Source: Escherichia phage T7
Direction: 5' to 3' (one strand)
Sequence record: MZ375249.1
DNA: 38,166 nucleotides
The stretch's first letter is position 1. Each line of letters opens with the position of its first letter. Below the pieces are notes generated by a model that did not search any database, was not told where the DNA came from, and saw nothing but the letters and a program-made list of their open reading frames with translations. Positions 7,430 to 37,872 of the stretch are shown in pieces. Position numbers and translations under genes: made by a program.

Positions 7430-8011
7430 TGGGACTGTTAGATGGTGAAGCCTGGGAAAAAGAAAACCCGCCAGTACAAGCAACTGGGTGTATAGCTTGC
7501 TTAGAGAAAGATGACCGTTATCCACACACCTGTAACAAAGGAGCTAACGATATGACCGAACGTGAACAAGAGATGATCATTAAGTTGATAGACAATAATG
7601 AAGGTCGCCCAGATGATTTGAATGGCTGCGGTATTCTCTGCTCCAATGTCCCTTGCCACCTCTGCCCCGCAAATAACGATCAAAAGATAACCTTAGGTGA
7701 AATCCGAGCGATGGACCCACGTAAACCACATCTGAATAAACCTGAGGTAACTCCTACAGATGACCAGCCTTCCGCTGAGACAATCGAAGGTGTCACTAAG
7801 CCTTCCCACTACATGCTGTTTGACGACATTGAGGCTATCGAAGTGATTGCTCGTTCAATGACCGTTGAGCAGTTCAAGGGATACTGCTTCGGTAACATCT
7901 TAAAGTACAGACTACGTGCTGGTAAGAAGTCAGAGTTAGCGTACTTAGAGAAAGACCTAGCGAAAGCAGACTTCTATAAAGAACTCTTTGAGAAACATAA
8001 GGATAAATGTT

Positions 8012-10424: not shown

Positions 10425-12294
<1,870 letters not shown>

Positions 12295-12317: not shown

Positions 12318-12356
12318 ACACCAAATTCTTTGAGTAATCAAACAGGAGAAACCATT

Positions 12357-13125: not shown

Positions 13126-15240
13126 ATGATCGTTTCTGACATCGAAGCTAACGCCCTCTTAGAGAGCGTCACTAAGTTCCACTGCGGGGTTATCTACGAC
13201 TACTCCACCGCTGAGTACGTAAGCTACCGTCCGAGTGACTTCGGTGCGTATCTGGATGCGCTGGAAGCCGAGGTTGCACGAGGCGGTCTTATTGTGTTCC
13301 ACAACGGTCACAAGTATGACGTTCCTGCATTGACCAAACTGGCAAAGTTGCAATTGAACCGAGAGTTCCACCTTCCTCGTGAGAACTGTATTGACACCCT
13401 TGTGTTGTCACGTTTGATTCATTCCAACCTCAAGGACACCGATATGGGTCTTCTGCGTTCCGGCAAGTTGCCCGGAAAACGCTTTGGGTCTCACGCTTTG
13501 GAGGCGTGGGGTTATCGCTTAGGCGAGATGAAGGGTGAATACAAAGACGACTTTAAGCGTATGCTTGAAGAGCAGGGTGAAGAATACGTTGACGGAATGG
13601 AGTGGTGGAACTTCAACGAAGAGATGATGGACTATAACGTTCAGGACGTTGTGGTAACTAAAGCTCTCCTTGAGAAGCTACTCTCTGACAAACATTACTT
13701 CCCTCCTGAGATTGACTTTACGGACGTAGGATACACTACGTTCTGGTCAGAATCCCTTGAGGCCGTTGACATTGAACATCGTGCTGCATGGCTGCTCGCT
13801 AAACAAGAGCGCAACGGGTTCCCGTTTGACACAAAAGCAATCGAAGAGTTGTACGTAGAGTTAGCTGCTCGCCGCTCTGAGTTGCTCCGTAAATTGACCG
13901 AAACGTTCGGCTCGTGGTATCAGCCTAAAGGTGGCACTGAGATGTTCTGCCATCCGCGAACAGGTAAGCCACTACCTAAATACCCTCGCATTAAGACACC
14001 TAAAGTTGGTGGTATCTTTAAGAAGCCTAAGAACAAGGCACAGCGAGAAGGCCGTGAGCCTTGCGAACTTGATACCCGCGAGTACGTTGCTGGTGCTCCT
14101 TACACCCCAGTTGAACATGTTGTGTTTAACCCTTCGTCTCGTGACCACATTCAGAAGAAACTCCAAGAGGCTGGGTGGGTCCCGACCAAGTACACCGATA
14201 AGGGTGCTCCTGTGGTGGACGATGAGGTACTCGAAGGAGTACGTGTAGATGACCCTGAGAAGCAAGCCGCTATCGACCTCATTAAAGAGTACTTGATGAT
14301 TCAGAAGCGAATCGGACAGTCTGCTGAGGGAGACACAGCATGGCTTCGTTATGTTGCTGAGGATGGTAAGATTCATGGTTCTGTTAACCCTAATGGAGCA
14401 GTTACGGGTCGTGCGACCCATGCGTTCCCAAACCTTGCGCAAATTCCGGGTGTACGTTCTCCTTATGGAGAGCAGTGTCGCGCTGCTTTTGGCGCTGAGC
14501 ACCATTTGGATGGGATAACTGGTAAGCCTTGGGTTCAGGCTGGCATCGACGCATCCGGTCTTGAGCTACGCTGCTTGGCTCACTTCATGGCTCGCTTTGA
14601 TAACGGCGAGTACGCTCACGAGATTCTTAACGGCGACATCCACACTAAGAACCAGATAGCTGCTGAACTACCTACCCGAGATAACGCTAAGACGTTCATC
14701 TATGGGTTCCTCTATGGTGCTGGTGATGAGAAGATTGGACAGATTGTTGGTGCTGGTAAAGAGCGCGGTAAGGAACTCAAGAAGAAATTCCTTGAGAACA
14801 CCCCCGCGATTGCAGCACTCCGCGAGTCTATCCAACAGACACTTGTCGAGTCCTCTCAATGGGTAGCTGGTGAGCAACAAGTCAAGTGGAAACGCCGCTG
14901 GATTAAAGGTCTGGATGGTCGTAAGGTACACGTTCGTAGTCCTCACGCTGCCTTGAATACCCTACTGCAATCTGCTGGTGCTCTCATCTGCAAACTGTGG
15001 ATTATCAAGACCGAAGAGATGCTCGTAGAGAAAGGCTTGAAGCATGGCTGGGATGGGGACTTTGCGTACATGGCATGGGTACATGATGAAATCCAAGTAG
15101 GCTGCCGTACCGAAGAGATTGCTCAGGTGGTCATTGAGACCGCACAAGAAGCGATGCGCTGGGTTGGAGACCACTGGAACTTCCGGTGTCTTCTGGATAC
15201 CGAAGGTAAGATGGGTCCTAATTGGGCGATTTGCCACTGA
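13126..15240 (+). CDS. 5: Gene 5, DNA polymerase (704 aa)
   Basis: [36 protein letters not shown]...; exonuclease and Pol I family motifs; ends NWAICH. Confidence 0.99.
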
Positions 15241-15285
15241 TACAGGAGGCTACTCCAAAGGCATAAAACTATAGGAGAAATTATT

Positions 15286-15585
15286 ATGGCTATGACAAAG
15301 AAATTTAAAGTGTCCTTCGACGTTACCGCAAAGATGTCGTCTGACGTTCAGGCAATCTTAGAGAAAGATATGCTGCATCTATGTAAGCAGGTCGGCTCAG
15401 GTGCGATTGTCCCCAATGGTAAACAGAAGGAAATGATTGTCCAGTTCCTGACACACGGTATGGAAGGATTGATGACATTCGTAGTACGTACATCATTTCG
15501 TGAGGCCATTAAGGACATGCACGAAGAGTATGCAGATAAGGACTCTTTCAAACAATCTCCTGCAACAGTACGGGAGGTGTTCTGA
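15286..15585 (+). CDS. 5.5: Gene 5.5, H-NS-binding protein (99 aa)
   Basis: MAMTKKFKVSFDVTAKMSSDVQAILEKDMLHLCKQVG... Confidence 0.9.
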   Translation: MAMTKKFKVSFDVTAKMSSDVQAILEKDMLHLCKQVGSGAIVPNGKQKEMIVQFLTHGMEGLMTFVVRTSFREAIKDMHEEYADKDSFKQSPATVREVF

Positions 15586-15952: not shown

Positions 15953-16841
15953 CCTTAAACAATTCTATGAGTTACGTGAAGGCTGCGACGACAAGGGTAT
16001 CCTTGTGATGGACGGCGACTGGCTGGTCTTCCAAGCTATGAGTGCTGCTGAGTTTGATGCCTCTTGGGAGGAAGAGATTTGGCACCGATGCTGTGACCAC
16101 GCTAAGGCCCGTCAGATTCTTGAGGATTCCATTAAGTCCTACGAGACCCGTAAGAAGGCTTGGGCAGGTGCTCCAATTGTCCTTGCGTTCACCGATAGTG
16201 TTAACTGGCGTAAAGAACTGGTTGACCCGAACTATAAGGCTAACCGTAAGGCCGTGAAGAAACCTGTAGGGTACTTTGAGTTCCTTGATGCTCTCTTTGA
16301 GCGCGAAGAGTTCTATTGCATCCGTGAGCCTATGCTTGAGGGTGATGACGTTATGGGAGTTATTGCTTCCAATCCGTCTGCCTTCGGTGCTCGTAAGGCT
16401 GTAATCATCTCTTGCGATAAGGACTTTAAGACCATCCCTAACTGTGACTTCCTGTGGTGTACCACTGGTAACATCCTGACTCAGACCGAAGAGTCCGCTG
16501 ACTGGTGGCACCTCTTCCAGACCATCAAGGGTGACATCACTGATGGTTACTCAGGGATTGCTGGATGGGGTGATACCGCCGAGGACTTCTTGAATAACCC
16601 GTTCATAACCGAGCCTAAAACGTCTGTGCTTAAGTCCGGTAAGAACAAAGGCCAAGAGGTTACTAAATGGGTTAAACGCGACCCTGAGCCTCATGAGACG
16701 CTTTGGGACTGCATTAAGTCCATTGGCGCGAAGGCTGGTATGACCGAAGAGGATATTATCAAGCAGGGCCAAATGGCTCGAATCCTACGGTTCAACGAGT
16801 ACAACTTTATTGACAAGGAGATTTACCTGTGGAGACCGTAG
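15939..16841 (+). CDS. 6: Gene 6, 5'-3' exonuclease (300 aa)
   Basis: MALLDLKQFYELREGCDDKGILVMDGDWLVFQAMSAAEFD... Confidence 0.97.
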   Translation: MALLDLKQFYELREGCDDKGILVMDGDWLVFQAMSAAEFDASWEEEIWHRCCDHAKARQILEDSIKSYETRKKAWAGAPIVLAFTDSVNWRKELVDPNYKANRKAVKKPVGYFEFLDALFEREEFYCIREPMLEGDDVMGVIASNPSAFGARKAVIISCDKDFKTIPNCDFLWCTTGNILTQTEESADWWHLFQTIKGDITDGYSGIAGWGDTAEDFLNNPFITEPKTSVLKSGKNKGQEVTKWVKRDPEPHETLWDCIKSIGAKAGMTEEDIIKQGQMARILRFNEYNFIDKEIYLWRP

Positions 16842-16942
16842 CGTATATTGGTCTGGGTCTTTGTGTTCTCGGAGTGTGCCTCATTTCGTGGGGCCTTTGG
16901 GACTTAGCCAGAATAATCAAGTCGTTACACGACACTAAGTGA
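16829..16942 (+). CDS. 6.3: Gene 6.3 candidate (37 aa) with GTG at the expected start
   Basis: Small ORF VETVAYIGLGLCVLGVCLISWGLWDLARIIKSLHDTK overlapping the gene 6 end; start codon is GTG. Confidence 0.5.
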   Translation: METVAYIGLGLCVLGVCLISWGLWDLARIIKSLHDTK

Positions 16943-37824: not shown

Positions 37825-37872
37825 ATGTTCCGCTTATTGTTGAACCTACTGCGGCATAGAGTCAAGTCCTAA
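37825..37872 (+). pseudogene. 19.5: Gene 19.5 remnant (15 codons, MFRLLLNLLRHRVKS, then stop)
   Basis: Start matches T7 19.5 (MFRLLLNLLRH) but the ORF ends after 15 codons; about 188 bp missing between phiOR and the right terminal repeat versus reference. Confidence 0.7.

What the first reader, a model, noticed from the sequence alone, without database searches (positions are those of the whole stretch)
15241..15285. Gene 5.3 deleted with its last ~19 nt retained ahead of gene 5.5
Seen in sequence: the DNA polymerase stop (15240) and the 5.5 start (15286) are only 45 bp apart. The spacer is tacaggaggctact joined to ccaaaggcataaaactataggagaaattatt, which keeps the 5.5 ribosome-binding region. 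From established knowledge, reference T7 has the 118-codon gene 5.3 (a putative nuclease-fold protein of unknown function) here; the offset jump is 338 bp.
Basis: partly seen in the sequence, partly recalled or inferred. Interest (0 to 1): 0.45.

Follow-up and report, generated by a model that had tools for sequence, protein, structure and literature searches.

The report
Engineered gene 5.3 deletion in T7
The window is a laboratory genome-reduced phage T7, and the short gap between the DNA polymerase gene and gene 5.5 is the scar of a published CRISPR/Cas9-plus-template deletion of the dispensable nuclease-like gene 5.3, so it is real but already known.

Summary
Gene 5 ends at 15240 and gene 5.5 starts at 15286. 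The 45-nt spacer joins T7 position 16482 directly to 16821. That is a 338-bp deletion running from the A of the gene 5.3 ATG to 19 nt before the end of its stop codon. No microhomology lies at the junction, and no 5.3 remnant exists elsewhere in the window.

It misses the origin of the sequence. The window is 99.95% identical to 'Mutant Escherichia phage T7 clone T7_130S' (MZ375258.1). It carries six further deletions against reference T7.

The exact junction occurs in 46 public phage records. All are mutant T7 clones whose names fit the clone-naming scheme of the CiPGr genome-reduction study (Yuan et al. 2022, PMC9825161). That paper names gp5.3 as its worked example of a targeted gene. It used Cas9 guides plus 2 x 50-bp recombination templates designed to delete whole genes.

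Natural T7 relatives without 5.3 have a different, 19-nt spacer. The 5.5 ribosome-binding region is intact. No annotated promoter or terminator is lost, and no new signal appears at the junction.

Verdict: a known engineered allele, of low interest.

The parts
13126..15240 (+). Gene 5 (T7 DNA polymerase), intact, stop TGA at 15238-15240. It carries one substitution against the reference (window 14336, codon 404 AAA to ACA, K404T).
15241..15255 (+). Retained native gene 5 / 5.3 intergenic leader (T7 16468-16482). It includes the now orphaned gene 5.3 Shine-Dalgarno AGGAGG at 15244-15249, with no start codon at a usable distance downstream.
15255..15256 (.). Deletion junction: T7 16482 joined to T7 16821, 338 bp (T7 16483-16820) missing, 0 bp microhomology.
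15256..15274 (+). Last 19 nt of gene 5.3 (T7 16821-16839) including its stop TAG (15272-15274). There is no start codon, so it is non-coding here.
15273..15285 (+). Gene 5.5 translation initiation region. The AGGAG at 15273-15277 overlaps the 5.3 stop and lies 8 nt before the ATG. It is identical to T7, and the same 'ctataggagaaattatt' is found in natural 5.3-less relatives.
15286..15585 (+). Gene 5.5 (H-NS-interacting protein), intact and identical to T7.
15206..15305 (.). Inferred footprint of the 2 x 50-bp homologous-recombination template (T7 16433-16482 + 16821-16870). It is found contiguous in the window. The arm positions are inferred from the junction and the published 50-bp arm length, not read from the cassette list.

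Best explanation
[quoted passage not shown] T7 was passaged on E. coli MG1655 carrying spCas9 and a pooled pTarget library. Guides cut inside gene 5.3, and the break was repaired by recombination with a plasmid-borne template of two 50-bp arms. Those arms join the base before the 5.3 ATG (T7 16482) to a point 30 nt upstream of the gene 5.5 ATG (T7 16821). The product has lost every 5.3 protospacer, so it escapes further cutting and spreads. Gene 5.3 is dispensable, so the phage stays viable. The retained 30 nt keep the 5.5 ribosome-binding site, and no annotated promoter or terminator is removed. Shown here: the junction, its precision, its presence in the study's clones, and loss of all candidate protospacers. 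Inferred: the exact arm coordinates, and that this event arose from the cassette rather than by chance.
For: (1) The window is collinear with MZ375258.1 'Mutant Escherichia phage T7 clone T7_130S' with only 19 differences. It carries six further deletions against NC_001604, one of which removes exactly the gene 1.4 ORF, T7 7608-7763.
(2) The 44-mer across the junction occurs in 46 of 50,697 phage records: MZ375250-94 (43 records) and OL964739-41. All are Escherichia phage T7, and the six inspected are described as mutant clones.
(3) The clone names (T7_80S, T7_90S, T7_100L, T7_130S) match the paper's scheme. Large and small plaques were picked every 10 transfers from the cassette-gene library.
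(4) The paper states that cassettes carry a 20-bp spacer and 2 x 50-bp HR arms and that cassette-gene deletes the entire gene. It also reports that gp5.3 deletion was followed by PCR and 'became dominant in the populations'.
(5) The deletion starts exactly at the A of the ATG and has 0 bp of microhomology. The deletions of kinds the paper calls undesigned have direct repeats at their ends: 9 bp at 19.5 and 1 bp at 0.4-0.6. The 18-bp terminal-repeat loss, which the paper passages read do not mention, has 5 bp.
(6) Another clone from the same deposit series (OL964749, T7_1t2) has a different deletion in 5.3 of exactly 100 bp (T7 16642-16741), matching the second cassette type, cassette-100.
(7) The deleted segment holds 33 candidate SpCas9 protospacers (20 nt + NGG), and none remains in the window.
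(8) NC_001604 annotates no promoter or terminator between phi4.7 (13915) and phi6.5 (18545). The junction creates no terminator-like site, its only promoter-like match nearby is a weak minus-strand one, and it shows no unusual RNA structure (z = -0.54).
Against: The supplementary tables listing cassette sequences and accession numbers are not held. The link between these GenBank records and the paper therefore rests on clone names and content, and the arm coordinates are inferred. The 46 clones come from serially transferred populations and are not independent events, so recurrence alone does not prove design. I could not find a uniform rule for how much is kept upstream of the next gene: 30 nt here, 27 nt after 1.4, 34 nt after 4.3 and 19 nt after 3.8. 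The exact record for the window is not in the searched collection.
Confidence: 0.93

Rival explanations
1. A spontaneous deletion, by illegitimate recombination or replication slippage, or an undesigned CRISPR-escape deletion. It happened to remove 5.3 and was selected because it destroys the Cas9 targets.
For: The same genome carries deletions with microhomology at their ends that look spontaneous (19.5: 9 bp; terminal repeat: 5 bp). The paper reports undesigned large deletions and escape mutations.
Against: There is no microhomology at the junction, and the left end falls exactly on the first base of the ATG. The paper's list of undesigned T7 deletions (gp0.3-0.6, gp4.3-4.7, gp19.5) does not include 5.3, which is instead given as the example of a targeted gene whose disruption was tracked.
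Confidence: 0.05
2. A natural T7-like allele that never had, or naturally lost, gene 5.3.
For: The slot between gene 5 and 5.5 is naturally variable. It is empty in Shigella phage ESh6, Yersinia phage phiA1122 and phage 13a, and T3 has an HNH endonuclease gene there. gp5.3 homologues occur in only 100 of 50,697 phage records.
Against: Natural empty sites have a 19-nt spacer (ttctataggagaaattatt). They lack both the 5.3 leader (acaggaggctactc) and the 5.3 tail (caaaggcataaaa) that the window keeps, base for base as in T7. The rest of the window is about 99.95% T7 and carries other engineered-looking deletions. No natural phage record has the junction.
Confidence: 0.01
3. An assembly or sequencing artefact that collapsed 338 bp.
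For: None specific. There are small oddities at the genome ends.
Against: There are no repeats at the breakpoints to cause a collapse. The same junction appears in 46 separately assembled genomes. The paper reports PCR detection of the gp5.3 deletion.
Confidence: 0.01

Closest known systems
CiPGr genome-reduced T7 mutants (Yuan, Shi, Jiang, Ma, Nucleic Acids Res 2022; PMC9825161), e.g. GenBank MZ375258.1 clone T7_130S and MZ375250.1 clone T7_90S
   Same: Identical 5.3 junction and the same set of other deletions. MZ375258.1 is collinear with the window over its full length with 19 differences.
   Different: The window (38,166 bp) is not identical to any record in the searched collection. MZ375249, which by the accession order (T7_80S = MZ375248, T7_90S = MZ375250, T7_100L = MZ375251) would be T7_90L, is absent from the collection and is probably the window itself. 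This is inference.
Wild-type T7 gene 5.3 locus (NC_001604 16483..16839)
   Same: The flanks are 100% identical, and the gene 5 stop, 5.3 leader, 5.3 tail and 5.5 start are all as in T7.
   Different: 338 bp of the 357-bp ORF are missing, so no gp5.3 can be made.
Natural 5.3-less Teseptimavirus arrangement (ESh6, phiA1122, 13a)
   Same: Gene 5 is followed directly by gene 5.5, with the same 5.5 ribosome-binding sequence ctataggagaaattatt.
   Different: The natural spacer is 19 nt and the window's is 45 nt, with T7-specific 5.3 leader and tail remnants.
cassette-100 allele of 5.3 (OL964749.1, clone T7_1t2)
   Same: Same gene disrupted, in the same series of deposited mutant T7 records.
   Different: An internal deletion of exactly 100 bp (T7 16642-16741) leaves a truncated annotated ORF, rather than the 338-bp near-whole-gene deletion.

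Membership tests
Designed CiPGr 'cassette-gene' deletion | Deletion end points set by gene boundaries, not by sequence repeats | tested here: met
   The left end is the first base of the 5.3 ATG, the right end is 30 nt before the 5.5 ATG, and there is 0 bp of microhomology.
Designed CiPGr 'cassette-gene' deletion | The allele is present in the study's deposited mutant clones and absent from natural phages | tested here: met
   46 records share the junction. All are Escherichia phage T7, the six inspected are mutant clones, and there are no others among 50,697 records.
Designed CiPGr 'cassette-gene' deletion | SpCas9 targets lie inside the deleted segment and are lost in the product | tested here: met
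   There are 33 candidate 20-nt + NGG sites in T7 16483-16820, and none is left in the window. Which guides were actually used is unknown.
Designed CiPGr 'cassette-gene' deletion | The junction equals the synthesized 2 x 50-bp HR template for gp5.3 | not testable with these tools
   No supplementary files, and so no cassette list, are held for the paper.
Spontaneous microhomology-mediated deletion | Short direct repeat at both ends, one copy retained | tested here: not met
   0 bp at the 5.3 junction, against 9 bp (19.5) and 5 bp (terminal repeat) elsewhere in the same genome.
Natural 5.3-less T7-like allele | 19-nt gene 5 / 5.5 spacer ttctataggagaaattatt without 5.3-derived sequence | tested here: not met
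   The window has 45 nt, including the 5.3 leader and the 19-nt 5.3 tail.
PD-(D/E)XK endonuclease (Pfam PDDEXK_5), for the deleted gene's product gp5.3 | Profile match above the curated threshold | tested here: met
   E 1.1e-10, 42.1 bits against a cut-off of 26.1, residues 5-96. There is a weak match to PDB 2ost 'putative endonuclease' (E 0.013) with an aligned D-L-V ... K-V-Q-V-K stretch.
PD-(D/E)XK endonuclease (Pfam PDDEXK_5), for the deleted gene's product gp5.3 | Demonstrated nuclease activity | not testable with these tools
   [quoted passage not shown] The paper is not held, and which phage's Gp5.3 it means is unverified.

The most novel reading that the evidence does not exclude
Loss of gp5.3 may be advantageous in itself on E. 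coli MG1655, beyond escape from Cas9. The PD-(D/E)XK nuclease could be costly, or its DNA-end products could be sensed by host defences, as the cited Ppl work hints. That would help explain why the 5.3 deletion swept the passaged population and is present in nearly all sequenced clones from transfer 90 onward.
Probability: 0.12. Interest if true: 0.3.

Novelty: already known. Interest (0 to 1): 0.07.

Why it matters
It matters mainly as provenance. The window is an engineered, genome-reduced T7, so its missing genes and odd junctions should be read as laboratory edits and passage artefacts, not as natural variation. The allele confirms what the source study already reported, that gene 5.3 is dispensable for T7 growth on E. 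coli MG1655. The comparison with natural relatives adds a small point: the gene 5 / 5.5 slot is naturally polymorphic. It can be empty, hold a PD-(D/E)XK gene or hold an HNH gene, which fits 5.3 being a mobile, homing-endonuclease-like passenger.

Tried and rejected
(1) I looked for the paper's supplementary tables (cassette sequences, accession list). None are held, and a full-text search for 'MZ375233' found nothing.
(2) I tried to find a record identical to the window. The closest is MZ375258.1 with 19 differences. MZ375252.1 is 37,779 bp, so it is not the window. MZ375249 is not in the collection.
(3) I looked for a uniform design rule for the sequence kept upstream of the next gene. The four precise-looking deletions keep 30, 27, 34 and 19 nt, so there is no rule.
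(4) I looked for a relocated or remnant 5.3 in the window and found none.
(5) I looked for a new promoter, terminator or RNA structure made by the junction and found none.
(6) I tried to read the Ppl/Gp5.3 paper (Xu et al., Mol Cell 2026). It is not held. Citing papers mention only NTP sensing. Two of those look-ups used substring matching and returned mostly irrelevant text.
(7) One literature search failed on a term that was too short.

Full report
**Observation**

The window has a 704-aa DNA polymerase ORF at 13126..15240 and a 99-aa gene 5.5 ORF at 15286..15585. The 45 nt between them read tacaggaggctactccaaaggcataaaactataggagaaattatt.

A BLAST comparison of the whole window with reference T7 (NC_001604, fetched) shows a collinear alignment at about 99.95-100% identity, broken by several gaps. 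At the finding, window 15255 aligns to T7 16482 and window 15256 to T7 16821. T7 16483-16820, 338 bp, is therefore absent.

Gene 5.3 is annotated at 16483..16839. The deletion begins at the A of its ATG and leaves its last 19 nt, with the stop TAG at window 15272-15274. T7 16483 and 16820 are both 'a' while the window has 'c' on each side of the junction. The breakpoint is therefore unambiguous and has no microhomology.

Neither gp5.3 (tblastn) nor the deleted DNA (blastn-short) has a significant match elsewhere in the window. The observation and the 338-bp offset are confirmed.

**What the window is**

The 1045 nt around the finding match many T7 records in two pieces, because those records have 5.3 present. 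They match a block of records named 'Mutant Escherichia phage T7 clone ...' in one piece. The window aligns end to end with MZ375258.1 (clone T7_130S, 38,167 bp) with only 19 differences.

Against the reference it carries these changes:
- an 18-bp loss in both terminal-repeat copies
- a 563-bp loss across genes 0.4-0.6
- a 156-bp loss that is exactly the gene 1.4 ORF (T7 7608-7763)
- a 292-bp loss inside gene 3.8
- a 198-bp loss of gene 4.3
- the 338-bp loss of 5.3
- a 189-bp loss at gene 19.5

A 44-mer centred on the 5.3 junction, too short on either side to seed a match in wild type, hits 46 of 50,697 phage records. These are MZ375250-MZ375294 (43 records) and OL964739-41. All are Escherichia phage T7, and all those inspected are mutant clones.

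**Source study**

The clone names fit Yuan et al. 2022 (PMC9825161). T7 was serially transferred on E. coli MG1655 carrying spCas9 and a pooled pTarget library. Each 200-bp cassette had a 20-bp spacer and a 2 x 50-bp homologous-recombination template. [quoted passage not shown] Eight large (L) and eight small (S) plaques were picked every 10 transfers from the cassette-gene libraries, and 60 T7 mutants were sequenced.

The paper uses gp5.3 as its worked example. Its deletion was followed by PCR and 'became dominant in the populations'. Its list of undesigned T7 losses is gp0.3-0.6, gp4.3-4.7 and gp19.5, which does not include 5.3.

In the deposited series, T7_80S (MZ375248) still has 5.3, while T7_90S (MZ375250) and T7_100L (MZ375251) have the deletion. 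MZ375249, which by this order would be T7_90L, is missing from the searchable collection and is probably the window. That last step is inference.

A clone from the companion accession block (OL964749, T7_1t2) carries a different 5.3 allele, an internal deletion of exactly 100 bp, T7 16642-16741. This matches the cassette-100 design.

**Mechanism**

The best explanation has three steps.
- Cas9 cuts inside 5.3.
- The break is repaired from a plasmid template whose arms would be T7 16433-16482 and 16821-16870. This 100-nt string is contiguous at window 15206-15305.
- The product has lost all 33 candidate NGG protospacers of the deleted segment, so it is immune to every 5.3 guide and rises in frequency.

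The junction, its precision, the lost targets and the shared allele are shown. The arm coordinates and the causal link to a particular cassette are inferred, because the supplementary cassette list is not available.

The contrast within the same genome supports design. The 5.3 and 1.4 junctions are blunt and sit on ORF boundaries. The 19.5 and terminal-repeat losses sit between direct repeats of 9 and 5 bp.

**Consequences**

No gp5.3 can be made. Its Shine-Dalgarno (AGGAGG, 15244-15249) is orphaned with no start codon in range. Gene 5.5 keeps its own initiation region (AGGAG at 15273-15277, ATG at 15286).

The reference annotation has no promoter or terminator between 13915 and 18545. No annotated transcription signal is therefore lost. 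The junction region contains no terminator-like site. Its only promoter-like match near the junction is a weak minus-strand one (9 of 12, 15309-15280). The region also folds no better than shuffled sequence (z = -0.54).

**The deleted gene**

gp5.3 (118 aa) matches Pfam PDDEXK_5, a PD-(D/E)XK endonuclease family, above threshold (E 1.1e-10). It also matches PHROG 5018, of unknown function, and weakly matches PDB 2ost, 'putative endonuclease' (E 0.013), with an aligned DLV...KVQVK stretch.

Homologues occur in only 100 phage records, 57 of them at 95% identity or more. The gene 5 / 5.5 region matches 686 records.

In natural relatives the slot varies:
- ESh6, phiA1122 and 13a have it empty, with a 19-nt spacer ttctataggagaaattatt.
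- T3 has an HNH endonuclease gene there.

This pattern fits a mobile, homing-endonuclease-like passenger gene, which is an inference. It also shows that the window's 45-nt spacer is not the natural empty-site allele, because it keeps T7-specific 5.3 leader and tail sequence.

One lead could not be read. [quoted passage not shown] I could not confirm which phage's Gp5.3 it concerns.

**Rivals**

- A spontaneous or escape deletion is disfavoured by the blunt, ATG-precise junction and by the paper's own lists.
- A natural allele is excluded by the spacer comparison and by the T7 identity of the rest of the genome.
- An assembly artefact is excluded by the absence of repeats at the breakpoints and by 46 concordant assemblies plus reported PCR.

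**Verdict**

The feature is real and correctly interpreted, but it is an already published engineered deletion in a laboratory phage. Interest is low.

Noticed in passing
window 98|99 and 38122|38123: Both copies of the terminal repeat lack the same 18 bp (T7 99-116, GGGTTGGGGATGACCCTT), which sits between GGGTT direct repeats. The repeat is therefore 142 bp instead of 160 bp. Both copies also share a G-to-T change at position 37. The same state is seen in MZ375258.1.
   Followed up: partly
window 7026|7027: A 156-bp deletion that is exactly the gene 1.4 ORF (T7 7608-7763), blunt, with no microhomology. It looks like a second designed whole-gene deletion. It clips the first bases of the phi1.5 promoter region.
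   Followed up: partly
window 1323: A 563-bp deletion (T7 1342-1904) removes most of gene 0.4, all of 0.5 and 0.6A, and most of 0.6B, with 1 bp of microhomology. It overlaps the gp0.3-0.6 region that the source paper lists among its undesigned large losses.
   Followed up: partly
window 10516|10517 and 12321-12323: A 292-bp deletion inside gene 3.8 (T7 11254-11545) starts 29 nt into the ORF and ends 19 nt before the gene 4A start. A 198-bp deletion of gene 4.3 (about T7 13352-13549) has a 3-bp CCA ambiguity. Whether these were designed or spontaneous was not resolved.
   Followed up: partly
window 37856-37864: A 189-bp deletion covers most of gene 19.5, between 9-bp direct repeats (ATAGAGTCA). 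It looks spontaneous and matches the paper's undesigned gp19.5 loss.
   Followed up: partly
window 14336; also 3140, 23120, 31454, 32502, 32607, 33698, 18006, 18042, 387: Point differences from NC_001604 include DNA polymerase codon 404 (AAA to ACA, K404T), RNA polymerase codon 184, tail and internal-core genes 11, 16 (three sites) and 17, and two sites in 7.3. There is also an A-to-G change at T7 405, the position annotated for promoter phiOL. Whether these are passage adaptations or stock differences was not examined.
   Followed up: no
loci L008 (ESh6), L009 (phiA1122), L010 (T3), L011 (13a): The slot between gene 5 and gene 5.5 is naturally polymorphic in T7-like phages. It is empty with a 19-nt spacer in ESh6, phiA1122 and 13a, holds an HNH endonuclease gene in T3 and holds the PD-(D/E)XK gene 5.3 in T7. 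Phage 13a additionally has an endonuclease gene splitting gene 5 itself.
   Followed up: partly
L007 (OL964749.1) 774|775: Clone T7_1t2 has an exactly 100-bp internal deletion of gene 5.3 (T7 16642-16741). This is a second engineered allele of the same gene.
   Followed up: yes
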